Shown here one piece after another: positions 4,990-26,615 of a DNA stretch of 26,615 nucleotides (the stretch's first letter is position 1; each line of letters begins with the position of its first letter). Location of the stretch: positions 83,222,669-83,249,283 of the forward strand of contig NC_057718.1 of the NCBI RefSeq assembly GCF_004010195.1, read 5' to 3'. The position numbers and the translations under genes are program-made. The DNA is from Chiloscyllium plagiosum. Lineage: Eukaryota. The notes below the pieces were generated by a model. The model was not told where the DNA came from. It did no database searches and saw only the letters and a list, made by a program, of their open reading frames with translations.

Positions 4990-5990
4990 TGGAGGCATTG
5001 AAGTGCATCCATGAGGGTAAGGTTATGTGGAGAGCACATTTTAGATGTGGTCACCCTGTAGCTTAAAGAAGACCAGTCAGAAAGAGAATGATTGACCATC
5101 AGTCAGAAGAAGAGTGGCAGGCAGGCAGACAGGAAAGTCCCAAAATGCATCTCACTTGGGAACAGATTTTCAGAGCTGGAAATTGGCAACAGTGACTTTT
5201 CCTCTGGGGAGTAAAGCCAGACCCCAGCTGAAGAAGGGGAGGGCGATCAGAAAGAGAGGGAGAACAATACTGATAGGAGATTCAATAGTGAGGGGTCAGA
5301 TAGACATTTCTGAGGCCACAGATGTGACTCCGGGATAGTGTACTCCCTGATGCTGGTGTCAAGGATGTCACTGAATGGCAGGAGGACACTCTACAGGGGA
5401 GGACGAGCAGTCAGAGATTGTGATTCACAATGGGACTAACAACAGATAGAGAGATTAGGTCCTGTGACAAGAATTTAAAGCACCAGGGAGTTGAGTATAA
5501 AGCAGGACTTCAAAGTTTGTAATCTCACTGTCGAAAAGTGTGGGGCTGGAAAAGCACAGTGGGTCAGGCAGCATCCAAAGAGGAGAATCAACAAATCAGG
5601 AATGATGAAGGGCTTATGCCCGAAACATCGACTCTCCTGCTTCTTGGATGCTGCCTGACCTGCTGTGCTTTTCCAGCCCCACACTTTTCGACTCTGATCT
5701 CCAGCATCTGCAGTCTTCACTTTCTCCTAATTTCTACATTACTCACTAGCAAGTGGCACTGTGAGGATAGGAATAGGCAGATAGAAGACATGAATACATG
5801 GCTATAGATTTGAAGCAGGAGGGAGGGCTTTACATTGGTTGATCACTGGATTTATTTCTGGGGCAAGTGAAACACCTGAATGGAAATGGGAGCAACATCC
5901 TTACTGGGAGATTTGCTAGTAGAGTTTGTGTGGGTTTAAACTGATTTGGCAGTTGTGTGGGATGTGGAGTAGAGGTACAGTAGGTGATGA
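4990..5990 (+). mobile_element. CR1 ORF1 esterase (SGNH/GDSL) relic, interrupted at ~5531-5728
   Basis: TILIGDSIVRG (GDS block), IVIHNGTN-like block (attgtgattcacaatgggactaac), MNTWL and HLNGNG segments. Confidence 0.75.
5531..5728. mobile_element. Short fold-back Penelope-type element with degenerate hammerhead core
   Basis: Inverted arms ~5531-5592 and ~5627-5691; central atgatgaagggcttatgcccgaaacatc; same family as 9841, 14229 and 17260. Confidence 0.75.
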
Positions 5991-7395: not shown

Positions 7396-9840
7396 TGAAC
7401 AATTTTGATTTCTATCCCACAGTTGATGCCAGATCTACTAAGTTTTCTCCAGCATTTTCTATTTTAATTTGACATCTCCAGCATCTGCATTACTTTGCTT
7501 TTGTTTCTACTCTACAGTCTCTAGACCCCTCATGAACTTTGAACAATTCTATTAAATCTTCTCTCAAAATTCTTTTTACTAAGAATAACAACTCAACATT
7601 CTCCAATCTCTCCAGCAAACTGAAGTTCCACAGCCTTGAAACCATTCTTTAAACCCACTCTAAGTTTCTACATCCTTTATAAAGTGCTTTGCACAAAATT
7701 GGATACAGTGCACCAGTTGAAACAATGTTTTACAAAGATTCATTATAGCTTCTTTTACTCTATGACTCTAGTTTTAAAAAAAAAATTAGTTTTCTTCTTC
7801 ATGCTGTCTACTCCAATCACGTTACCTCCCTCCCCACTCTTGTTATTTCTCCAGAGTCAAAAATCAATGATTGGAAGGGAGTGAACTTGTGACTGTAAAA
7901 ACTGGTACAGTAACTCTAGCTGGTCCCACTGCTGCCACAAAGATGACTTTTGATTACCAATCACATTGAGAGAAAGCCATGGAGGAGCAGCGAAAACAAA
8001 TAAAAAGGGAGTAGGAAATCGGGAGCAATCTACGGTTCATGAAGATGTCTTCATGGCCTTTTTAGCAATGGTGTAGCTAAAGGCAAAGGAGAAACTGCCT
8101 AGAAACATAATTCTGAGCAGGGACCAAGATCTCGGTCACTCAGCTCTACACAAGTCCAATCCTGGCTATCACTCACACAGCCAAGATCAAGATGCTTGGC
8201 AGAGCTTTCACGTTTGCACACTGACAGAGCCCCAGTAAGTTTCTAGGATGCTATTTTGAAGGGTGGTGATAAATGGAGAAAATTTGCAGAAGCATCCGTT
8301 AAAGGGAGAATAGGGGGTTTGGATTGGAGTCTGGTACCCATAAAGGAACCACCACTTAAAGAAAAGACGCCAGATCCCTAAAAAGGAGCTACTATCTGGT
8401 AAACATAAACTTAAGTTTTCATATGCTTCTGAAAGCTAATCCTACAAAAGATCTCTGAAATGTAAGCAGTAAAACTCTTATATAAAGAGAAAATTTACAT
8501 CTGACAAAGGGGCATTGGATTCGAAACATTAATATCACAAATGCAGTTATAAAGAAACATTGGATAGACCGGGGTTGATTTTCTTAGAACAAGAGGAGGC
8601 TGAGGAATAACTCAATTGAGGTGCACAATATTATGAGGATGGACCTAAATAGAGTAAACCAGGAAAGCAGGAAACTAGAGGCCATTTAGCTTAACACCTG
8701 CCCATTGGAAAAATGCTGGAATCCATTACTACATAAGTTCGAGTACTCAGAAAATCTCAATGTAATCAGCAGAGTCAACATAGTTTTAAGAAAGTGAAAT
8801 ATGCTTACATACTTTATTGGAGTTCTGAGGAAGTTAAAAAAAGTGGACAAAGGGAAGGAACAAGGGAATGTGATCGATTTAGATTTCCATAAGACACGTG
8901 ATAAGGAGCTGCATCAAAAGTTACTATGCAAAATAAGAATGTTTCCCCATGCCCCATCAATGTTAGGGATAGATGTGTTAGAGGAAATAAGATAGGCATA
9001 AATGGATCATTTTAAAGTTGGCAAGATATGATGAATGGAGTACCACAGGGAACATTGCTGGGACCTTATAATATGTCACGATTTTGATGAAAGGATTAAA
9101 TGTAAGGTTGCTAAACTTGTTGATAGTTACAATGAGGACATAAAATCTCTGCAAAGGGATATAGATAAGATTAATTGGACAAGAGAAAAAAATGGCAAAT
9201 GGAATATATGTGGGAAAATAGGAACATCCACTCTGGGACAGGACGAGAAAATCAATAAATTATTTAGATGGAGAGAAATTGTAGAACCTAAGGAACAAAG
9301 GGATCGAAGTGACTTACTAAGTGAATCTTGAAAGGTTGGTACAAAAGTACAGCAAGTGATGAGGAAGACAAATGGAATATTTTCATTTATTGCAAGTGTT
9401 ATGGAATTGAAAGCAGGGGTGTTTTGCTACAATGTATAGAGTGCTGATGAGACCATATCTGGAGCACTGTAAATGGTTTTGCTCTCCTTATTTAAGATAG
9501 AAATGCATTAGGAGCTGTTCAGAGAGGGTTCACTCCATTGATATCTGGGTTAGAGAGGTTATTTTATGAGGAAAGGTTGGAAGGCTAAGCCTTTATCCAT
9601 TGGAGTATATAAAGATAAGAGATGTAATTTTATTGGAACATACAACATCCTGAGGGACAGGGTTTTTTATTCTTATTATGGGGTTTGAACGTGTCAAGTA
9701 AGGCTGGCAATTGTTGCCTATGCCTATATGTCCTTGAACCAACTGGCTTTCTAGGCCATTTCATAGGATTACTAAGAATCAACCACATTCCTGCAAGTCT
9801 GGAGTCACATATAGGGCAGTCTAGGTAAGCACATCAGCTT

Positions 9841-9949
9841 GGAGAAGGTGAGGACCGCAGATGCTGGAGATAAGAGTGTGTGCTGGAAAAGCACAGCAGG
9901 TCAGGCAGCATCCAAGGAGCAGGAGCAGGAGCCCTTCATCAGGAATAAG
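9841..9949 (-). mobile_element. Short Penelope-type element, internally deleted, with 12-bp TSD
   Basis: TSD GCACATCAGCTT at 9829-9840 and 9950-9961; minus strand begins attcCTGATGAagggc. Confidence 0.8.
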
Positions 9950-12929: not shown

Positions 12930-13385
12930 GATTTTAAAACCGTTTTGGTCACCATAGTCAAGAACCATTCAGGGATTCTTGAGGTTGTAGAGGAGATTTA
13001 CAGAATAGTTTGGGATGATGGATTTTACGCAGGTTGGAAAAGCTGTCATTGATCTTCTTGATGCAAAATGATTCAGGAGAGATATAATAGGGGCTAACAA
13101 AATTACGACAAATTTAAATGGTTGTTGGAAGATACAAGGAACACAGATTTAAGGCTTTTGGAAGAGAAATGGGGGTATTAGGCAGAACTTTCTTTTTTAA
13201 ACACCCAAAGAGTAATGACCTGGATCTGTGTTTTATAGGGGAGGTGAAGCAGAACCGTCAATAATTTCGAAAGAAAAACGGATGTGCCCTTGACGAACAA
13301 ACATTTTGCAGAGTTAGTGAGATAGGGCAGGAGAAGGGACTGGATTGCTACACAGACAGCCAGCATGGTCTCGAATGGCTCAGTA
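12930..13385 (+). mobile_element. Degenerate CR1 3' end
   Basis: gttgtagaggagatttacagaat (VQRRFTR-like), acacagatttaagg (HRFK), UTR gacagccagcatgg...gaatggc. Confidence 0.65.
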
Positions 13386-13665
13386 ATGAGTCTAGGTCGC
13401 TTTGATGAACCAAACTTGGTTTGGGAGAACTAGGTACCTTTCCTTCATCCACAGAAACAGGTAAACAGAATACAGTATTACACTATCCAGTAATATCACC
13501 AGAAGACACAGTGATGAGAGGAACAAGTAATATTACCTAAATATCTGGATGGATCCGCCAAAAACAGTATTGCGGTGGTGAGTAGCAAGTCTGAACACAG
13601 AAGTGTGTGTTTTTCTGTCAGCCACATAAAGACAGTGTAGGTTTAAAAATGCACGCAGTGATTAA

Positions 13666-13930
13666 ACGGCGGGTGCCAGCGGCGCAGTGATGGCGGGATC
13701 CCAGAACATGGAGGCCGCCGGCGGTTCAAACACAAACAAACCACCGACTTCAATCAACCACCACCACAGGGGACCGCCTCGAGCATGGGCCGTGCCCACA
13801 GTTAGTCGGAAAACTTCACTTTTTGCTTTCTACTCGTATTTTTTCCCCCCAAACAAACCAAGATTTCATCTGGCGAAGCGGCCAACCGCCGTTCCCATGG
13901 AAACGATGGCGGTTGGAACACGCGCTGGGC
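13666..13930. promoter_or_regulatory. CpG-rich non-repeat patch, candidate promoter/first exon of the CDKL gene
   Basis: Local cluster of CpGs (ggcggg, gcggcgc, gccgccggcgg, cgcgc) in otherwise CpG-poor DNA, not part of any recognisable transposon, upstream of the CDKL exon, and containing an X-box. Confidence 0.6.
13891..13904. promoter_or_regulatory. RFX X-box motif GTTCCCATGGAAAC
   Basis: Matches the palindromic X-box consensus GTTNCCATGGNAAC; flanked by a 9-bp inverted repeat (13882-13890 / 13908-13916). Confidence 0.7.
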
Positions 13931-14190
13931 AAAGAGAGGGATGGAGGGTGGTTGGGAGACATGGGGAGCATCTCAAAGGAAAAGAAGAGAATGATTCAAG
14001 GGAAACGATGTTTATGGAAAGGGAATATGGGAAGAAGTGAGTTGAGTGATGAGGGGGGTGGAATGGGGAAGAAGGAACAGGAGTGAGGGAGAATCTAGAG
14101 TGGGGAAGGGAAGGAGTGAGACAAGTGATGGGGAGAGGCAGAGGGACAGCTGAGGGGAGGGAGAAAGTGTGCAAGGGATAAAGAGAGGTA
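13930..14190 (+). repeat. Purine-rich (G/A) low-complexity tract
   Basis: Long GA-rich run directly flanking the CpG patch. Confidence 0.6.
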
Positions 14191-14228: not shown

Positions 14229-14378
14229 TGGAGTCAAGTACTTGGATAGGAGAAAGTGAGGACTGCAGATGCTGGAGATCAGAGTTGAGAGTGTGGCGCT
14301 GGAAAAGCACAGCAGGTCAAGCAGCATGAAAGGAACAGGAGAGTCAACATTTCGAGCATAAGCTCTTTTGTCAGGAAT
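14229..14378 (-). mobile_element. Short Penelope-type element (monomeric copy)
   Basis: Same sequence family as 9841-9949; minus strand attcctgacaaaagagcttatgctcgaaatgttg is a decayed hammerhead core. Confidence 0.75.
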
Positions 14379-15304
14379 ATGATGATAGCTCTTTGATTTG
14401 TAAAACCTTGTTAAAAGAGAAACCACACATTTGCTCTTTGCCCTTCTGTGCAGAGAAATAAAAGGAAATTCCTGGATTATTCATCCTCAGCTTCCTCTGT
14501 TAAGTCAATCTTTCTGCAAGCCTCCTGTTGGAAGGACAAGGGAAATAAGCACCTGCAGGAGGCACTAACAATCAGTGCATCTTACAACTTCATGTCATTT
14601 GCAAAGAACTGAGATGATTTTAAAGAAAATAAAACTCACCAGCATATGATCAAGGCTGGTACCAAAATTGTGTTTCTCTTTCCCTCCTCCACCACACCAC
14701 AATATTGGTGCCTTGTCTTTTCGTGTTTGTATGTACATGGCATTTTAAGAAAGGGTCGAATTGAAGTTATAGATTAGGAATTCAATTTATTTAATTTTGC
14801 CATTGATTATAAACAGTTTGATTACAATAAAAAAAATCCTTAAAAGAAACTGGTATGAATATTTGCCAATTAGGTAAAATTGGCAATTCAGTGGCTTAAT
14901 CAAATTCTCACTTGTGATGACTCCAAGAATAGTGCAGCTTGATTTCCAGCACAATATCCCAGTCAGTTGTGACACTTTATCGATGCTAGTGTGAGAGATT
15001 TGCAGGATTTTGCAGAGGTATAAATCATGATATTTCAGTGATCTTTGCTGTACATTATTCATGCCTCAAATGCATACAGGAGGACAGTAACACTGCCGGC
15101 ATGTAGAGCATAAGTTTGGTGTCAGGTTTGAGGTTTTTTTTCATCAAAACTGTACTCCTCAATCAAAAGATATGTGGTAGGGAAAGCGGGAACAGGCAAC
15201 TGAGTTGGATGATCATAAACAAATGGGGAGCAGGTTCAAAGAGCTGAATGGCCAACAGCTACTCATACTTTCCTCAAGAAACCTGTCAAGATACCAATTC
15301 CTTA

Positions 15305-16715: not shown

Positions 16716-18105
16716 GAATCATACAGCACAGAAACAGACCAACCAGTCCAAGCTGAACATAATCTCGAACTAAACTAGTCCCACCTGCTGCTCCTAGCCC
16801 AAATCACTCCAAACCTTTCCTATTCATGTATCCATCCAAATTTGTTTTAAACATTGTAATTGTATCCACATCGACCACTTCCTTAGGAAGTTATGTGAAC
16901 ACCTTCATGTCTTTTTTTAATTTCTCTCTCCTCTCACCTTAAAAATATACCCCCTAACCTTGAAATTCCCCATCCTAGGTAAAAGACAACTACCATCAAC
17001 TCTATCTATACCTCTCATTATTTGATAAATTTCTATCAAGTCACTTGTCAATCTCCTATGCTCCAGTGAAAAGAAGTCCCAGCCTTTCTTTATAACACAA
17101 ACCTTCCGTACCCAGCAACATCCTAGTAAATCTCTTCTAAACCCTCTCCAACTTAATAATATCCATCTTATAACCAGTTAATCAGAACTAGACACTGTAT
17201 TCCAGAAGAGGCCTCACCAATGTCATGTACAACCTCAATAAGCCGTCCCAATTCCTATAGGCAAAAACGAGGAACGCAGATGCTGGAAATCAGAGTCTAG
17301 ATTAGAGTGGTGCTGGAAAAGCACAGCAGGTCAGGCAGCATCCGAGGAGCAGGAAAATCGACGTTTCGGGTAATGAATATTCCTGATGAAGGGCTTTTGC
17401 CCAAAATGTCGATTTTCCTGATCCTCAGATGCTGCCTGACCTGCTGTGCTTTTCCAGCACCACTCTAATCTAGTCTCAATTCCTATACTGAAAGGACGGA
17501 GCAATGAAGGCAAACTTGCCAAACGGCTTTTTACCCACCAAGTTTATATGTGACACAAAGTTTAAAAAATTGTGTACCTGCACCCCAGGTCCCTCTGTTC
17601 TACAACACTACTCAAGGACCTACCATTAATTGTATAAGCCCTACTCCTGTTTGTTTTACCGAAATTCAATACTTTGCATTTATCCAGATTGAACTCCATC
17701 TGCAATTGACCTCCATTGGCAATTGACCCATTGATCAAGATCTCTTCATAATCTTAGAAAACCATCTTCACTGTCCACTATACCACCAACTTTGGTGTCA
17801 TCTGTAAACTTACTAACCATGTCTCCTAAATTTCACATCTAAATCATTTATATATATGACAAACAAAAGTGGACCTAGTACCAATCCTCCAGTCCAAAAA
17901 ACAACCCTCCTCCACCATCCTCTGTCTCCTATATCAAGCCAATTTTCTATTTAATTGGCAAGGTCTCCTTCAATCCCATGTCATCTAACTTTACTAATTG
18001 GGCTACCATGTGGAATCTTGTCAAAGGCTTTCTAAAGTCCATGTAAACAACATCTATCTGTGCCCTCATCAATCTTTTTGATTACTTCCTCAAAAAACTC
18101 AGAAA
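16716..18105 (-). mobile_element. CR1 ORF2 RT to 3' end, split by a fold-back element at 17260-17476
   Basis: Minus strand YMDFRK/AFDKIPHG, SKFTDDTKVG and LVRPLLEYSV motifs; HER1-type UTR. Confidence 0.82.
17260..17476. mobile_element. Short fold-back Penelope-type element with 11-bp TSD and hammerhead core
   Basis: TSD CAATTCCTATA at 17249-17259 and 17477-17487; inverted arms ~17293-17370 / ~17400-17477; central CTGATGAagggcttttgccc(a)aaatgtc. Confidence 0.85.
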
Positions 18106-18250: not shown

Positions 18251-19164
18251 TGAGTTACTTCAACTCCTCAGAGTGTATTTCAGGTAAAGTTCAGTAATTT
18301 GGAGCCTTAATGTTGTGTGTGATTTGGAATGAACCCATGGTTTTCTGTTTATTCTGACATAAATGCTGTCTTCTTTTACAATCAAAATATTGCCGCCATC
18401 TACTTCCAACATTCCTCCATTGTTAGGATACCATAATTCATGTTTTTTTTCTGCTTCTCTAATATTCTTCCTGCCTCCTCTCATCTAGAAATTCTATTAC
18501 ATTCAGATGCTGCTAATTACGTCTTTACCAGCTTTAAGCACCACACATCCATCACCCAGCTCTTGCCAGGATCTTTGTTGTTACTTCCACGGACAAACCT
18601 ACACTAAGCTTCAGCTGCTTGTTTCTTTTCAAATCCTCTGTATTTTGAAAATAGTCTGCTCTTATTCACCATTCTTTCAACTTCAGTTCAAGTCAACATT
18701 TCTGTGCCTTCTGGAACATTCTTAAATCCCATCCCTTCAAATTTCTTCCCAGTGATTTTGAAACAGCCTGCACCCATCCCTTCTGTCAGCTAGGTGTCCA
18801 TTTGTTGTTCTTCCCTTTATTAATTGCCTGGAGATAGCTTTCTGGTAAAACTGTAGTTTTGAAATGTTGCTACCACTGCTGTTTACATGGTTAGGTTATG
18901 CTAGTCATTATCAAGGCAGATGGGAATAAGAAAGTGCACTCAGACTATATATCCACTCCTGTTAGCATTCAGATGTTCCTTATGGGGAAATAAAAAGCTT
19001 TTTTTTAAAAGAAAGATTGTTTTGTGTGAACCTATTACTTACAAGATAATACTTTAGAACTATTAAAAGTAGGTTTCCTCACTGTGAAGAGTTTAGTAAA
19101 AGGTCCAGACCAGATATAAATGATTATACCTCTGAAAGGATTATTTCAGGCCAAGAAAGGGTCA

Positions 19165-20136
19165 CGACGTACTGAGGTTCTACCTGTCCCCGGTGTTGCA
19201 AAGGATGGGCCTGGCCTCGCTGCCGTGGAATGCTCCGAGTAGTTGCACCGTTCCGTATCACCTGTCCTCCGTGGAGAAATTTATGAAGAAAAACACCTTT
19301 AACCACAAGTCCACCAGGAAGTGGTCAGCACATAGTGTCCTTGAGACCCTTCGGGAAAAGGAAAGGGTGGATCCTATCGAGTGGTTCCCTGAGCAGACTG
19401 TCAAAGCCATTTGGCAGAATGCCTCATCGCCAGAACTTTCCAACAAGCACCAAGACATGGCTTGGCTGGTGGTGAGAAGGGCTCTGCCTGTGAGATTGTT
19501 TATTCACGCCCGGACTCTCTGCTGCACCGCAAGCTGCCCTCGAAGCGACTGCGGGGGGGAACGAGACTGTCACACACCTCCTTTTGGAATGTGCCTACGC
19601 AGAAGAAGTCTGGAGAGGAATGCAGTGGTGTTTGTCGAGGTTCGTCCCAAGCAGCGCCGTGACGCGGGACTCCGTGCTCTACGGTCTGTTCCCCGGGACG
19701 CACACCGAGACGAACATCAACTGTGCCTGGAGGATCATCAACTCGGTCAAAGACGCTTTCTGGGTGGTCCGAAACCTGTTGATCTTCCAGCTGAAGGGGT
19801 TGACCCCGACTGAGTGTTGCGGACTGGCACTTTCCAAGATCCAGGGCTACGTGTTGAGGGATGCGCTGAAGCTTGGGGCAGCTGCCGCCAAGGCGCGGTG
19901 GGGAAAGACCACCGTGTTACGTCTGCCTGCCAAAGAACAGGGGTCCCACGCAGTAAGGGGGCTCCGCTGACACCTCAGCTAAATATATGGATAGTAAATG
20001 TACAGACCTGTATATATGAATGATACTCGATCTCTGTATGCAAAGAAATGGAATGTTTATATATGTATGGCATGACCAATTGTACAGATCATCAAAGTAT
20101 TTTATGAATAAAGTATATTTTTGAATAAAAAATATT
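19165..20136 (+). mobile_element. 5'-truncated Tx1-clade non-LTR retrotransposon (ORF2 C-terminus + 3' UTR), relatively young
   Basis: ORFs 19193-19813 and 19584-19970 join with one frameshift near the G run at 19553-19560: ...LSNKHQDMAWLVVRRALPVR...CPRSDCGG-ETVTHLLLEC... (zf-RVT CCHC); CpG-rich; AATAAA and A tail at 20107-20132; candidate TSD AGGGTCA at 19158-19164 and 20137-20143. Confidence 0.82.
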
Positions 20137-20332: not shown

Positions 20333-21410
20333 ATAGAGTCATACTACAGCGCGGAAACTGACTCTTGGGTCCAACTCATCCATGCTGACCAGATATCCTA
20401 AATGAACGAAGTCCCATTTATCAGCACTTGGCCCATATCCTTCCACACCCTTCCTATTCATATACCCATCCAGGTACCTTTTAAATGTTGTAACTGTACC
20501 CCCTCCCCACCACTTCCTCTGGCAGCTGGTTCAATGTACACACCACCATCTGCACAAAAAGGTTGTCCCTTAGATCCCTTTCAAATCTTTCCCCTCTCAC
20601 CTTAAACCTATGCCCTCTAGTTCTGAACTCGCCCACCTCAGGGAAAAGACTTTGTCTATTTATCCTATCCATGCCCCTCATCATTTTATAAACCTCTATA
20701 AAGTCACCTCTCAGCCTTCGATGCTCCAGGGAAAACAGCCCCAGCCTGTTCAGCCTCTCCCTATAGTTCAAACCCTGGCAACATCCTTGTAAATCTTTTC
20801 TGAACTCTTTCCAGTTTCACAACATCCTTCCCATAGGAAGAAGACCAGGATTCCACACAATAATCCAAAAATGGCTTAACCAATGTCCTGTACAGCCACA
20901 ACATGACCTCCCAACTCCTATATTCAATACTCTGACCAATAAAGGTAAGCATACAAAATGCCTTCTTCATTATCCTATCTACTTGTGACTACTTTCAAGG
21001 AGCTATGAACCCACACTACACCCAAACTCTCTGTTCAGCAACATTCCCCAGGACCTTACCATTAAGTGTATAAGTCCTGCCCTGATTTGCCTTTCCAAAA
21101 TGCAGCACCTTGCATTTATCTAAATTAAACACCATCTGCCACTCCTCAGCCCAGTGGTCCACCTGATCAAGATCTCATTGCAATCGGAGGTAACCTTCGT
21201 CGCTGTCCACTACACGTCCAATTTTGGTGTTGTTTACAAACTTACTAACTATATCTACTATGTTCACATCCAATAACAAAAAGCAGTGGACTCAGCACCA
21301 ATCCTTGTGGCACATCACTGGTCACAGGCCTCCAGTCTGAAAAACAACCCTCCACCACCACACTCTGCCTTTTAACTTCAAACCAGTTCTGATCCAAATG
21401 GCTAGTTCTC
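20333..21410 (-). mobile_element. CR1/HER1-type LINE, RT C-half to 3' end
   Basis: ORFs 21245-21439 (SDVPQGLVLSPLLF), 20761-20970 and 20481-20771 (ERLNRLGLFSLEHRRLRGD). Confidence 0.9.
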
Positions 21411-21763
21411 CCTTTTTTTAAACCATGTGTTCTAACCATGCTAATGTAAATAGCTAGGCTTAGTTTTTATTTTATCTTAATTTTGTTTTTGAAACATCTG
21501 TATTATTGTTAAATCCAACATCTGAGGCATCATAGACTTGTATTTCATTGAGATGCCACCTTACTAAAACAGAAAAAACACTATTGTCCAGTAGTATTAT
21601 CAGCTAGGATCATAAATGATTCACCATTCCAGGATTTTAACATCCAGTTGTCATAGTCCACATGTATGGTGACATAGGTAAGACTAAGAAAAATTATGTA
21701 TGACCAGGTTGGGATTTAACAAGCAGGAGCACAAAAGTGGATAACTACCCAAGTTAATTATAT

Positions 21764-22175
21764 TGTGGGGAAAATCACCAGTCACGGAGTCAGATTCTGG
21801 ATTCAATGACAGAGTTTATTGTCCAAAGAAACCAGAGCTCCAGAGAGAGACAGAGAGACGTCCGGCAGCACAGCTGTCAGCTGCGAGCCTTCTCTCACCC
21901 TCGGAACACATGTCATGATATTTTATACATTTCATGGTATAATGGTCCAAATATCGAGTCTTTGTTTGTACAGTATGGTTTGTTTACAGAAAACATTATA
22001 GAGTCATTGTCAGTTTCAGAGAATGTTAGAGTCATTGTCATTTTTAGCAGCTACGTGGAAGTCCATTGCTGCAGTAATTGGTCATGGTTATTCTTCCTGA
22101 GAAGGAAGATCGTTTTCCATTACTGCAAATCGAAGGTATTAACACTTGTGTACAAGCAGTCTCAGGTAGTTAACA
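21764..22175 (-). mobile_element. 3' LTR of endogenous retrovirus (412 bp)
   Basis: Minus strand starts TGTTAAC directly after a polypurine tract and ends CCCCACA (TGT...ACA); TATAAAA at 21921-21927; AATAAA at 21815-21820; 14-bp direct repeat in U3 (21999-22012, 22027-22040); lies downstream of env. Confidence 0.85.
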
Positions 22176-22187
22176 TTTCTCTCCCCC
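22176..22187 (-). other. Polypurine tract of the ERV
   Basis: GGGGGAGAGAAA on the minus strand immediately 5' of the LTR-initiating TG. Confidence 0.8.
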
Positions 22188-22471
22188 ACCTGCCTTAACC
22201 TAATTATCTATGTTCTGTTTCTATCATGTTGGTATTCTGCTGGCCTCAGACAGTATCTGTGTATGCTTTGCTGTACTTTTCCTCATAATGCCTCAGTGGC
22301 CATCTTGTATGCCAAGTGACCAACTTATGACTCAGCGGCCATCTTGTGTCTGTGTGCCCCATGTCAGCATACCCGGTGTCAAACCCCGCTTCACTCCCCA
22401 TTTGTGGTCAAGGAGGTGACTTCAGAGACCTCCATAAGACCACTCAACTCACATATAGAGGTATGCCTTTT

Positions 22472-23821
22472 CTAAGGTCTCCCCATCCCAAGGGGTGTCA
22501 AGGAGTCCGAGTTTCGCTGGGGGCTCTTCTTTGTGACACTTGCTTCTGGCATGGCCCACATCAGTAGCACCTTACAGCAAAGCTTTAAACACCCAAGGCC
22601 TCGGCAGAGTGAAATAAGGAGAACAATCCCGTGTGCTAAATAGTGTTTCCAGGATTTGCCTATCAGCCATTCTAGCCAGCTATCTCCTCCTGTGGCTTCT
22701 TGTCTGAAGGCATCTAGCTGGTCCTGAATGTTTTTTGATCACCTATGTAATATTGTAAGATTCATCAATGACATAGGATATACAGTTGTCACCAATGATG
22801 GTACATACTCCCCCTTGCTGGACTAACTGATAATCTACCACGTAACATGTCTGCTGTGTGTAAAGTCTGAGTTCAGCTAATTCACCACTGATTGCTTCTA
22901 GAGCCTTTGATGTATTGTTCCCTAAGATTGTCAATCCACACACAATATCGTTCTGGTTTTAGCCCTGATGACCCCTGCTGACTGCCCTCCAAAGACAGAG
23001 ATCCCAAAAACCCATACCACAATGATGATCCCAGCGTGGTGGGGATCTGCCAGTCAGCGCAGAATTCCCAGCTGATGGATCAGGTCACTATCCTTCACAA
23101 ACATGTCCCCCGCTGGGGCAGGATATAGTGAGGGGTCTGATTGTTCCTACTGCAAAAAGTTTCGGGAGGTTTGGTTTGTCAGTAGCACAAATCCCCTTAA
23201 ATAAGAAAATAAATCCCTCCGCTGCCCGATAGCATACAGTGTCCTGTTTCTGGGTCTGTTTGACTACCCATCTCACCTGACTCCCCATTTGTTCCCACCA
23301 GCTGGTAGATATCAAACAGGTGTGTCCATATGGCAGAGCCGATGTGAGTGCCATTGTCCGCATATAAACTGCCTTCCCATGGTCACGTTCAAGCATGCCT
23401 GCTCACTGATTGTACAGTGCTAGTGAGTACATTGTGTCTGCACGCATGAACTGTTTCTAGATAGCAGGGCATAAACACATCCCCATCCCTGCCCTGTGAA
23501 ACAGAGTGGGTAATCAGTGATCTTTTAAAGGTCTTTCTCTCCCCCTGTTGGGGTGCCCCGTGGGCTTGACTAATTCCACACACCTACCCTGGAGTTCCCT
23601 TTTGTATTTTCTTAGCTGTCCCTTACATGGCGTGCCCAAGGTATCTATTGTATGTAATTGCGAGGGGTTCACACATGGGTGATCACAAATAAAGATTGGA
23701 CCGATCGCGCCAGTGGGTAACAGAGTTCGGTTCCCATGTAAATTTAGGTGGGTTTTGTAAAAGAGGTTATCCTCAAATCCCAACCGGCTTCTGGCTATCA
23801 GAGCATTTAGGAACAGTAATA
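22472..23821 (-). pseudogene. env: Retroviral env relic (SU + TM), several stops and frameshifts; 5' end in the N gap
   Basis: TM heptad and ISD-like segment LEAISGELAELRLYTQQTCYVVDYQLVQQGGVCTIIGDNCISYV (ORF 22743-22943); fusion-peptide-like GSSLWYGFLGSLSL upstream in another frame; after a frameshift, Trp-rich DSWLEWLIGKSWKHY, hydrophobic anchor LAHGIVLLISLC and Cys-rich tail GCLKLCC ending at TAG 22472-22474. SU pieces in ORFs 23088-23396 and 23514-23821. Confidence 0.88.
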
Positions 23822-24321
23822 NNNNNNNNNNNNNNNNNNNNNNNNNNNNNNNNNNNNNNNNNNNNNNNNNNNNNNNNNNNNNNNNNNNNNNNNNNNNNNN
23901 NNNNNNNNNNNNNNNNNNNNNNNNNNNNNNNNNNNNNNNNNNNNNNNNNNNNNNNNNNNNNNNNNNNNNNNNNNNNNNNNNNNNNNNNNNNNNNNNNNNN
24001 NNNNNNNNNNNNNNNNNNNNNNNNNNNNNNNNNNNNNNNNNNNNNNNNNNNNNNNNNNNNNNNNNNNNNNNNNNNNNNNNNNNNNNNNNNNNNNNNNNNN
24101 NNNNNNNNNNNNNNNNNNNNNNNNNNNNNNNNNNNNNNNNNNNNNNNNNNNNNNNNNNNNNNNNNNNNNNNNNNNNNNNNNNNNNNNNNNNNNNNNNNNN
24201 NNNNNNNNNNNNNNNNNNNNNNNNNNNNNNNNNNNNNNNNNNNNNNNNNNNNNNNNNNNNNNNNNNNNNNNNNNNNNNNNNNNNNNNNNNNNNNNNNNNN
24301 NNNNNNNNNNNNNNNNNNNNN

Positions 24322-24763
24322 TTAATCACTGCGTGCATTTTTAAACCTACACTGTCTTTATGTGGCTGACAGAAAACACACACACTTCTGTGTTCAGACT
24401 TGCTACTCACCACCGCAATATTGTTTTTGGCGGATCCATCCAGATATTTAGGTAATATTACTTGTTCCGCTCATCACTGTGTCTTCTGGTGATATTACTG
24501 GATAGTGTAATACTGTATTCTGTTTACCTGTTTCTGTGGATGAAGGAAAGGTACCTCGTTCTCCCAAACCAAGTTTGGTTCATCAAAGCGACCTAGACTC
24601 ATTACTGAGCCGTTCGAGACCATGCTGGCTGTCTGTGTAGCAATCCAGTCCTTTCTCCTGCCCTATCTCACTAACTCTGCAAAATGTTTGTTCCGTCAAG
24701 GGCACATCCGTTTTTCTTTCGAAATTATTGACGGCTCTGCTTCACCTCCCCTATAAAACACAG
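24322..24763 (-). repeat. Inverted copy of 13226-13665
   Basis: Reverse complement aligns over ~440 bp with about 6 substitutions and 2 one-base indels by eye; left end abuts the N gap, right end joins ERV integrase. Confidence 0.95.
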
Positions 24764-25273
24764 CTTGGCCTTGGTTGGTGTCCCATCCTAACGTTTATGG
24801 GTCTACCTGGGTTGCCCTGTGCACAAACTGTGCATCTGCGGCAGTATTTGGCTGTATCTCTTCCCATTCCCTTCCATCACCACTCTCTCCCTAGATTTGC
24901 TATCATTGCTTCCCTGCCTGTAGGTGAGAGCCCGTGGTGCAGTTCGAACAAGGTGCTACCACCTTGTCTGCTTGCCTCAAGACCCCATCCTCCCCTTTAA
25001 GAGCTCCCTACCTTTTCCATCTCTCTCTTTCTCTTCCTGCAGGGTGTCCTCCTATAGCTGCGATGTGAATGGCATCTTCTACTCGTTCAATTGTTATTGG
25101 AACTTCATCAATGGTTTCCTGCTCTAAGCCTCGTAGGGCTGCTTGGTCTGCAGCTTGGTCCCCTTTAAATTGCAACCAGCCAGGACTAGCTTTCCCCGGC
25201 TCCTTTTTTGCGCTTTGATTTTTATTATTGCAGCCTCTTCTGGCAGTTCGCTGGTGCTCAACAGTGCTTGGAT
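24764..25273 (-). pseudogene. pol: Retroviral pol relic: RNase H C-terminus, linker and integrase N-terminal Zn-binding domain
   Basis: Across frameshifts: IQALLSTSELPEEAAIIKIKAQK / KEPGKASPGWLQFKGDQAADQAALRG (RNase H IIKxKAH...GNxxAD-type end) and FELHHGLSPTGREAMIANLGREW*WKGMGRDTAKYCRRCTVCAQGNPGRPINVRMGHQPRP (HHCC domain, second His apparently mutated to Pro). Confidence 0.85.
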
Positions 25274-25274
25274 T

Positions 25275-26615
25275 CTTTTTGTTTTGTAAATATATGTATT
25301 TGCAAATTTTTTTAACTTTACAAACAGATAAAATTATTGAAAAATACAATAATAAAAACAAAAAAACCCCACAAATTACAATCCAAATACTGTCTACCAA
25401 CTACTAACTTACCCTATAATACAAACAAACCCTAACATTGTGCAAAGCAACACCAAAAAAAAGAAAGAAAAGCACCAAAAACAAATAAAAAACCACAAAA
25501 TACAGAACAGCTATGCTTGGCGCAAAGCTCCCAAACAAAGGAACAGGAGCATTGTATATAAACCCCTATTAACTCAGGAGACCCCCCCTCTAGGGCCCAG
25601 GGGTTGACAAATCTAACCAACCTGGTTAGACAAACGCCCTCGTTAGGATAACTGACAAAGCTATATCCAAATAACTCAAGTAGGGCTGCCATGTCTTATA
25701 AAAATGCTCTGTTGTGTGGTGCACCATGTTTGTGAAAGGTCGAAGGGAATGTGCTCCATAATTAATTTCTGCCATCCCAGCCAGCCCGGCGGGTTCTCAG
25801 ACATCCAATTCATCATAATATTCTTCCGTGCACAGTGTGCAAGAATATTAAATAGTTTCTTCCCATGCCTGTCTAAAGGTGGTAAATTTGGTAAGAAGAG
25901 AGATAAAGGGCCTACTTTGACTTCAATCCTCAATACGCTCCCTATCTCTCCCCCCACAGCGCTCCAATAAAAACGGAGCCTGTGGCATGTCCAGAAGCAA
26001 TGGGTAAGAGTACCTACACTTATTTTACATTTGGGGCATACTGAAGATGCCCCTTTTTTAAACTTCGCCAGACGGTCTGGTGCCAGATGAGCCCTGTGCA
26101 GAACTTTTAATTAGCGCATGTCCTATTACAGATTGAGATCTTTCAAGTATTCTCCCATATGTTCTCCCATGTTTCAGAAGAGATCTCCACTCCTAGCTCT
26201 TGCTCCCATACCTCACATAACCAGTTAATATCCTGCCAGGCCCTGCCACCCAGCAGGCGATAGAGGGCACTAACCGAAAGGTGCTTGTGGAACGTAGCAA
26301 CCACCTCTCTGTATCGGGCTTATAGGGCTTAGTGAGAAGCATAGTCTTCTTCTGGATGAAATCCCTAACCTGAAGAAAATGGAAAAGGTCTCTGCTGGGT
26401 AACCCGTATTTGCGGCTCAGTTGCTCTAAAGACATCATAACCTCCCCCTCAAACAAGTCTCCCAAACTAGAAACTCCTCTCGCTGCCCATAGTTTGAACC
26501 CTGAGTCCATCATCCCTGGTCTGAACCCTGACATGCCAACTATAGGTGTAAGTGGCGAAGTCTTGGATAAACAACCCTCTCTGTGACGCATCGCCCTCCA
26601 TGCCTTGACTGTACT
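25275..26615 (-). mobile_element. L1-clade LINE 3' end (ORF2 C-terminus, 3' UTR, A-rich tail) inserted into ERV pol
   Basis: FKLWAARGVSSLGDLFEGEVMMSLEQLSRKYGLPSRDLFHFLQVRDFI typical of fish-type L1 ORF2; CCHC knuckle CPKCKISVGTLTHCFWTC; C-terminus FYKTWQPYLSY...AFV* (stop 25626-25628); T-rich UTR; tail aaaacaaaaagaa abutting pol. Runs off the window. Confidence 0.85.

What the first reader, a model, noticed from the sequence alone, without database searches (positions are those of the whole stretch)
21764..25273. Decayed endogenous retrovirus (pol-env-PPT-3' LTR) in a probable shark genome
Seen: correct retroviral order on the minus strand of RNase H end, integrase HHCC domain, env SU/TM, polypurine tract and a 412-bp TG...CA LTR with TATA and AATAAA. 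Most of it is visible only by stitching frames. Known: chondrichthyan retroviruses are known mainly from genome fossils and are sparsely sampled. Inference: the RNase H (IQALL...LPEEAAIIKIKA) and IN (HGLSxTG...CTVCAQxNP) motifs look class I (gamma/epsilon-like); RT is outside the window, so the lineage is unresolved and may be undescribed.
Basis: partly seen in the sequence, partly recalled or inferred. Interest (0 to 1): 0.78.

Follow-up and report, generated by a model that had tools for sequence, protein, structure and literature searches.

The report
Shark retrovirus fossil with filovirus-like envelope
This is the dead remnant of an old retrovirus, one of hundreds of related copies in what is likely a shark genome, whose envelope protein resembles the Ebola/Marburg-type fusion protein more than any solved retroviral envelope; that kind of shark retrovirus envelope is already published, so this is a further example, not a new kind.

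Summary
The 3' LTR is 633 bp (22393-21761), not 412. The 5' LTR, a tRNA-Ser primer site and the matching TAAT target duplication lie about 13 kb right of the window, beyond a nested LINE and a second ERV. Most of gag, protease and RT are deleted here. Bases 24322-24763 are host DNA (98% inverted copy of 13226-13665), probably mis-joined at the gap, so the integrase core is not visible. LTR divergence is 0.14-0.17. The family has hundreds of copies. RT of a sister copy falls outside the gamma/epsilon clade, next to other shark ERVs, and by eye resembles published snakehead-related (clade Huo) turtle and whale-shark ERVs. Env has a cysteine-bounded fusion loop and CX6C without the third cysteine; its best solved-structure matches are filovirus GP2. 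Such shark envelopes were reported in 2024 (PMC11521997). Not found in print: the surface subunit is also homologous to lizard Env-Mab2, and through it to Tapajos filovirus GP1. Two look-ups showed no earlier scan note on this family. Verdict: new member of a known kind.

The parts
21757..21760 (-). Target-site duplication TAAT, right after the 3' LTR; the same four bases precede the 5' LTR (L022 5503-5500)
   Evidence: the junction is bridged by contigs in 4 of 4 runs
21761..22393 (-). 3' LTR, 633 bp; TATAAAA 21927-21921, AATAAA 21820-21815; lacks 61 bp present in the 5' LTR
22394..22403 (-). Polypurine tract
   Evidence: the same tract precedes the 3' LTR in sister copies
22449..23821 (-). 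Broken env (SU and TM); start codon falls in the gap
22743..22958 (-). Unbroken TM stretch: loop-closing Cys, HR1, ISD-like segment, CX6C without third Cys
   Evidence: Pfam PF22307 E 6.8e-5, below the curated cut-off
23822..24321 (.). 500-N assembly gap; about 1.06 kb of integrase and env start is expected between 24764 and 23821 from sister copy L024
24322..24763 (-). Non-viral host DNA, 98% inverted copy of 13226-13665; probable mis-join or private rearrangement
13226..13665 (+). Source locus of the 442-bp inverted copy
   Evidence: a contig of run X1 continues into its left flank
24764..25277 (-). Broken pol piece: RNase H C-terminus and integrase zinc-finger region; 25265-25277 is the 13-bp duplication made by the LINE insertion
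25278..26615 (-). 3' end of an L1-like LINE inserted into RNase H; it continues right of the window and carries a second ERV
   Evidence: zf-RVT E 0.0017, below cut-off; the L1 label rests on recalled motifs; junction bridged in runs X1 and X16

Best explanation
This is a dead, twice-interrupted provirus of a multi-copy endogenous retrovirus family in what is likely a shark genome, with a pol gene outside the gamma/epsilon clade (likely snakehead-related, clade Huo) and an envelope of the filovirus-GP2-related gamma type. Shown: two LTRs, a 4-bp target duplication, a tRNA-Ser primer site, a PPT, a 2.8-kb deletion of most of gag, protease and RT, a LINE inserted in RNase H with a 13-bp duplication, and a younger ERV inserted in that LINE. 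Inferred history: germ-line infection and integrase-mediated insertion, spread of the family to hundreds of loci and solo LTRs, then neutral decay; the locus would make no functional protein today. Inferred working of the ancestral Env, from intact database relatives: host-protease cleavage into SU and TM; an internal fusion loop closed by two invariant cysteines as in filovirus GP2 and avian alpharetroviruses; HR1 with a glycan site, ISD-like segment, CX6C loop, HR2 and membrane anchor folding into a six-helix bundle. The four TM ectodomain cysteines would pair among themselves, so SU and TM are predicted to be held without the usual CX6CC disulfide.
For: LTR pair, TSD and nesting. PBS matches 17 of 18 bases of the genome's own tRNA-Ser(TGA) end, with CCA added. 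4-bp TSDs: 4 perfect and 3 three-of-four among 7 solo LTRs whose start the script found, plus this locus and L024 perfect, L025 three-of-four. Nested ERV LTRs diverge 0.068 against 0.166 for the host provirus, as nesting requires. RT tree: L024 with P0036 and Mustelus P0034 at 100/100, then Heterodontus P0076 and P0039 at 99/98, apart from gamma+epsilon (100/99) and gypsy rows. Tether plus RNase H in P0036. TM hits in the PDB: filovirus GP2 E 1e-9 (L056) and 1e-15 (P0181) against syncytins 5e-4 and 1e-5. No CC in 21 of 25 genomic copies whose alignment reaches that position. TM tree: shark Envs, Tapajos GP, Env-Mab2 and Lloviu GP2 form a 96/90 clade. C280, C320, C365 and C372 of P0181 are invariant in 10 of 10 rows.
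Against: RT comes from a sister copy (77-81% identical to this locus in pol and env), since this locus has lost RT. No named snakehead, walleye, foamy or ERV-L sequence was available for the tree; the Huo label rests on a by-eye comparison with a published supplement, and in my tree the 'NGFW-type' rows form a grade, one part of which joins class I at 98/97. Sister-to-class-I is not rejected (p-AU 0.064). Pfam PF22307 scores for this family are just under the curated cut-off. Both AlphaFold models were poor (pLDDT 32.5 and 47.2), so the disulfide pattern is inferred only. One LTR locus (L029) showed no TSD match.
Confidence: 0.85

Rival explanations
1. The provirus is a class I (gamma/epsilon-like) ERV.
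For: Best solved-structure RT hit is MLV (E 2e-21) ahead of foamy (9e-15); gamma-type TM; 4-bp TSD; sister-to-class-I not rejected (p-AU 0.064).
Against: Outside the 100/99 class I clade; grouping with fish epsilon-like rows rejected (p-AU 0.0004); RT motif DIANGFW against DLKDAFF or DVSNAFF in the class I rows; gamma Pols are only 30-34% identical to P0036 while unnamed non-class-I rows reach 36-54%. The PDB holds no snakehead-type RT among the hits.
Confidence: 0.1
2. The 442-bp host segment inside pol marks a real rearrangement (an 11.5-kb inversion allele or a duplication with a breakpoint in integrase) rather than an assembly mis-join.
For: The junction is clean and sits exactly where sister copies continue into the integrase core; the copy differs from its source at about 2% of sites.
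Against: No listed contig in 3 contig sets or the thin raw-read set bridges 24763/24764; contigs stop matching at 24763 and one runs on into the flank of 13226. Several of the differences vary between samples, as alleles would. The segment abuts a gap, and segment plus gap (942 bp) roughly equals the missing viral length (about 1.06 kb). Contigs show presence, not absence, and only part of the pieces were listed.
Confidence: 0.25
3. The element is a Gypsy/Ty3 LTR retrotransposon or lokiretrovirus with an unrelated env-like gene.
For: YVDD RT and 4-bp TSD are not exclusive to retroviruses (own knowledge).
Against: Gypsy rows are separated by a 100/100 branch; tether plus RNase H; Env hits TLV_coat and PF22307, not the paramyxovirus F family that defines loki Env (PMC7947760).
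Confidence: 0.03

Closest known systems
Cartilaginous-fish ERVs with filovirus-related ectodomains (Nino Barreat and Katzourakis 2024, PMC11521997; read: abstract, section 11, passages, 30 of 43 rows of one supplementary table)
   Same: Retroviral context, TM whose best hits are filovirus GP2 or Tapajos GP, same clade with Mabuya and Tapajos sequences in my tree.
   Different: They studied the ectodomain only and placed the fish elements as sister to Ebola/Marburg/Lloviu/Mengla (PP 0.83); my small tree puts the shark Envs with Tapajos+Mab2 (95/83) and Lloviu outside. In the parts I read they give no Pol class. Their alignments were in files too large to read, so sequence identity with their loci is untested.
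Clade Huo ERVs Ch_my_ERV12, Ch_pi_ERV20, Ma_te_ERV13 (turtles) and Rh_ty_ERV4 (whale shark) of Xu et al. 2018 (PMC6001957; read: section 7, passages, S2 Fig text, passages of supplement 7)
   Same: RT core with the same DIANGFW and QGFHNSP motifs; about 70% identical to the turtle sequences by eye over about 120 residues (against P0036).
   Different: Four motifs of this family were searched in supplement 7: three had 0 hits, so it is not the same family; clade membership was read from the order of labels in the figure's text, not from topology.
Class III pol with gamma-type Env: ERV-SA.a-Ppe and the CXnC Env subtype (bioRxiv 10.1101/2021.11.23.469661; read: parts 1-3 of 6) and XtERV-S (PMC8278194; read: passages)
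   Same: Non-class-I pol joined to a gamma-type env; CXnC subtype described in anamniotes, six cartilaginous fishes screened; XtERV-S also has a Ser primer site and a 705-bp LTR.
   Different: XtERV-S relatives have 5-bp TSDs, an ERV-L-like gag-pol and a CWIC motif; here the TSD is 4 bp and the TM lacks the third Cys. The preprint's supplements are closed and may hold this family.
Mabuya Env-Mab2 (ATY46612.1) and Tapajos virus glycoprotein (YP_010798909.1)
   Same: Shared SU N-terminal motif, SU C-terminal Cys-Pro, Cys-bounded loop and missing third Cys; shark SU profile hits Mab2 SU at 46.7 bits (shuffles at most 6.1), Mab2 SU hits Tapajos GP1 at 50.4 bits (shuffles at most 5.6).
   Different: Only 23% identical overall; the shark SU profile does not detect Tapajos GP1 directly (-5.4 bits; 8.6 bits after adding Mab2, E 0.037).
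CmiERV lineage I of the elephant shark (Han 2015, PMC4422223; read: part 1 of 2)
   Same: Snakehead-related ERV in a cartilaginous fish.
   Different: LTR divergence 0.033 there against 0.14-0.17 here; Ca_mi_ERV1 sits in a different part of the Xu 2018 figure than the closest-looking sequences.

Membership tests
Retroviridae provirus | Two direct LTRs with TG...CA ends and a target-site duplication | tested here: met
   TAAT on both sides
Retroviridae provirus | tRNA primer-binding site after the 5' LTR and PPT before the 3' LTR | tested here: met
   17 of 18 match to the genome's tRNA-Ser(TGA) end; PPT 22403-22394
Retroviridae provirus | gag-pro-pol-env order with tether plus RNase H | tested here: met
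   sister copy L024; relative P0036
Class I ERV (gamma/epsilon) | RT nested with gamma- or epsilonretroviruses | tested here: not met
   p-AU 0.0004 with fish epsilon-like rows; sister to all class I not rejected, p-AU 0.064
Clade Huo / snakehead-related class III | RT groups with snakehead retrovirus | tested here: inconclusive
   no named reference available; by-eye likeness to Huo-listed sequences; the motif also occurs in foamy-like rows
ERV-L-type class III | 5-bp TSD (PMC8278194) | tested here: not met
   4-bp TSDs; 5-bp matches 0-3 of 5
Gamma-type Env | ISD-like segment and heptad repeats in TM | tested here: met
   PF00429 and PF22307 hits of relatives, around the cut-offs; PDB alignments
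Gamma-type Env | CX6CC motif | tested here: not met
   0 of 21 informative genomic copies; absent in the whole clade while 106 of 124 anchored Env hits have CC
Gamma-type Env | CXXC isomerase motif in SU | tested here: inconclusive
   a mid-SU CXXC in 4 close relatives, none in P0189, P0191, Mab2 or Tapajos
Filovirus GP2 / alpharetrovirus-type TM | Internal fusion loop flanked by two cysteines | tested here: met
   C280 and C320 invariant around a Gly-rich hydrophobic stretch; the bond itself is inferred
Published shark filovirus-like ectodomain group (PMC11521997) | Clusters with their cartilaginous-fish sequences | not testable with these tools
   their alignments could not be read; clade with Mabuya, Tapajos and Lloviu reproduced
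Lokiretrovirus | Env similar to paramyxovirus F (PF00523) | tested here: not met
   definition from PMC7947760
Gypsy/Ty3 | RT groups with Metaviridae | tested here: not met

The most novel reading that the evidence does not exclude
Shark ERVs of this family, lizard Env-Mab2 and the Tapajos filovirus glycoprotein form one full-length Env lineage (shared surface subunit, Cys-bounded loop, no CX6CC). Tapajos virus would then have captured a whole retroviral env rather than an ectodomain, the shark elements would be its relatives rather than the sister group of Ebola/Marburg GP2 as published, and the carrier of this Env in sharks would be a snakehead-related Pol lineage shared with turtles.
Probability: 0.4. 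Interest if true: 0.68.

Novelty: new member of a known kind. Interest (0 to 1): 0.45.

Why it matters
The locus itself is an ordinary dead provirus. The family matters because its Env belongs to the retroviral group nearest to filovirus glycoproteins, so it bears on where filoviruses got their fusion protein. It ties that Env to a definite Pol lineage, primer tRNA and LTR, gives hundreds of datable copies, and extends the homology with the Mabuya/Tapajos branch into the surface subunit. If the TM really lacks a covalent SU link, it is a natural variant for asking what the CX6CC disulfide is for.

Tried and rejected
The search for related loci found no confirmed relative in viral contigs or metagenome contigs. 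AlphaFold of an intact relative gave pLDDT 32.5 (4 rows) and 47.2 (23 rows); the fold search had no match at E <= 0.001, with reptarenavirus and filovirus GP2 cores and syncytins on top; not used as evidence. The ESM Atlas gave TLV_coat/Avian_gp85 clusters at 0.96 and a filovirus GP cluster at 0.90; a lead only. A fifth TM cysteine seen in some genomic copies is Arg in the intact relatives and is taken as CpG decay (inference). Direct detection of Tapajos or Lloviu GP1 by the shark SU profile failed. Absolute dating failed: 0.135-0.166 gives about 31-38 My at 2.2e-9 and 310-380 My at 2.2e-10 per site per year, the two rates quoted in PMC4422223. Thin cover of 24764-25270 in the laid runs is not taken as absence. 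The journal version of the anamniote Env paper is not held. Literature searches; none listed a paper on SU homology between shark ERV Env, Env-Mab2 and Tapajos GP, but subscription journals, including the original Tapajos and Mabuya papers, were not seen.
Full report
Setting. The window is G000:C9:83222669-83249283 in a 3.56-Gb genome. A cartilaginous-fish host is inferred from the named relatives of the element's proteins (Mustelus, Heterodontus, Pristiophorus, Rhincodon, Hemiscyllium, Mobula); no host gene was tested.

Observation. A frame walk with intact database relatives shows 2 frame switches in the pol piece and 8 in env. LTR, env and pol piece have 1217, 259 and 211 first-look candidates in the genome, of which 40 each were scored, at 71-89% identity.

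Corrections. The LTR runs from 22393 to 21761 (633 bp). Sister copies start with TGAAG and end in CCACAACA at the matching places. Among 19 LTR loci given to the script, 12 were parsed; 7 solo LTRs had a correctly found start, of which 4 show a perfect and 3 a three-of-four 4-bp duplication; two starts were mis-called by the script but show perfect duplications, and L029 shows none. Bases 24322-24763 are a 98% inverted copy of 13226-13665 with no other match in the genome. In contigs of three other runs the match stops at 24763, the X1 contig continues into the flank of 13226, and no listed piece bridges the junction (only part of the pieces are listed). Segment plus gap (942 bp) is close to the 1.06 kb of viral sequence expected from L024. 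A mis-join is the likelier reading (about 0.75).

The whole provirus. Right of the window, pol resumes at window-equivalent 37967, then a 2.8-kb deletion removes most of gag, protease and RT, then leader, primer site and 5' LTR at 39503-40114. TAAT flanks both ends. The primer site matches the genome's own tRNA-Ser(TGA) end at 17 of 18 bases; some copies carry a second, different primer site, which I recall as another Ser tRNA. The 12.7-kb insert in RNase H is an L1-like LINE with a 13-bp duplication, and it holds a second ERV in the opposite direction (LTRs at 30878-31476 and 37227-37823). LTR divergence (K2P) is 0.166, or 0.135 without CpG sites, for this locus, 0.151 and 0.124 for two other two-LTR copies, and 0.068 for the nested ERV, in line with the nesting order. 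The 3' junction is bridged in 4 of 4 runs and the LINE junction in X1 and X16, so the locus is shared among animals. Absolute age is unresolved, tens to a few hundred million years depending on the rate.

Pol lineage. RT was taken from sister copy L024. Its best database hit is P0001 (72%), whose cluster holds a Mustelus asterias protein. In a 45-row tree L024 groups with P0036 and P0034 (100/100), then Heterodontus P0076 and P0039 (99/98), outside a gamma+epsilon clade (100/99) and apart from gypsy rows (44 of 180 stored proteins were chosen by hand). Grouping with the three fish epsilon-like rows is rejected (p-AU 0.0004); being sister to all 15 class I rows is not (p-AU 0.064). In supplement 7 of PMC6001957, 31 sequences carry the NGFWS motif; I saw 24, and those with visible names that appear in S2 Fig stand in its Huo or Tu parts. 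The turtle sequences ch_my_ERV12, ch_pi_ERV20 and ma_te_ERV13 and whale-shark rh_ty_ERV4 look closest, about 65-70% by eye. bioRxiv 10.1101/2023.10.17.562709 (passages) reports that most cartilaginous-fish RTs are clade III. So 'class I' is not supported and 'snakehead-related' is likely but not formally tested.

Env. The unbroken TM stretch of the window hits PF22307 (E 6.8e-5, under the cut-off). TM of copy L056 and the intact relative P0181 have filovirus GP2 as best PDB hits (E 1e-9, 1e-15), ahead of syncytins (5e-4, 1e-5). Close relatives are 55-74% identical Envs from sharks and rays. All lack the third Cys of CX6CC: 0 of 21 informative genomic copies among 25 have it, while 106 of 124 anchored Env hits do; 14 of the 18 exceptions belong to this clade. 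Two invariant cysteines bound a Gly-rich hydrophobic loop after the cleavage site, the layout described for alpharetrovirus Env (bioRxiv 10.1101/2021.11.23.469661) and recalled for filovirus GP2. In a 46-row TM tree the shark Envs, Tapajos GP with Mabuya Env-Mab2, and Lloviu GP2 form a 96/90 clade; shark plus Tapajos/Mab2 has 95/83. The tree has one mammalian filovirus lineage on a long branch, no reptarenavirus or alpharetrovirus, and flagged long rows including Mab2, so that inner order is weak. A profile of eight shark-clade SUs finds Mab2 SU at 46.7 bits among 75 targets (shuffles at most 6.1), and Mab2 SU finds Tapajos GP1 at 50.4 bits (500 shuffles at most 5.6); the shark profile does not find Tapajos or Lloviu GP1 directly. 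Structure prediction failed.

What is known. PMC11521997 already reports ERV ectodomains in four cartilaginous-fish genera as sister to mammalian filovirus GP2 (PP 0.83) and Tapajos GP with lizard elements (PP 1). The anamniote Env preprint describes CXnC subtypes and class III pol with gamma-type Env; PMC8278194 describes a frog example with a Ser primer site; PMC9967133 (passages) reviews GP2 as a gamma-type homologue.

Verdict. A real, old, non-functional provirus of an abundant shark ERV family; new member of a known kind. The points not found in print in eight searches are the Pol lineage behind this Env and the surface-subunit link to Env-Mab2 and, through it, Tapajos GP1. Interest 0.45.

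Noticed in passing
L021 6263 to L022 3208 (window-equivalent 30878-37823), + strand: A second, younger ERV inside the LINE's 5' end: LTRs 0.068 apart, RNase H closer to gamma-type Pols (42-46%) than to this family (31%), TM with a CC motif; primer site recalled as Pro-like.
   Followed up: partly
window 13665-13950: GC-rich stretch with several CpGs right after the duplicated 442-bp segment; looks like a promoter or CpG island.
   Followed up: no
P0181-P0191, just before the first TM cysteine: The close shark Envs have a non-canonical basic cleavage motif, whereas Mobula P0194 and P0198 have a canonical furin-type one at the same position; protease unknown.
   Followed up: no
G000, rows at about 55-63% identity: A related RT group in the same genome with longer open frames, so probably a younger sister family.
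   Followed up: no
L048 3007-3390: An LTR of this family with about eight tandem 39-bp units in U3; the window's 3' LTR has two units, its 5' LTR one.
   Followed up: no
window 19136-20135, + strand: GC-rich 3' end of another LINE (Tx1/L1-like by recalled motifs; no Pfam hit).
   Followed up: partly
window 5530-5729, 9838-9947, 14246-14380, 17257-17477; 20345-21445: Copies of a hairpin-forming SINE-like repeat and CR1/L2-like LINE ends (labels recalled); the same SINE-like repeat interrupts integrase and the 3' LTR of copy L024.
   Followed up: no
P0191 residues 1-165: A shark-clade Env with a 150-residue N-terminal extension ahead of the shared SU motif.
   Followed up: no
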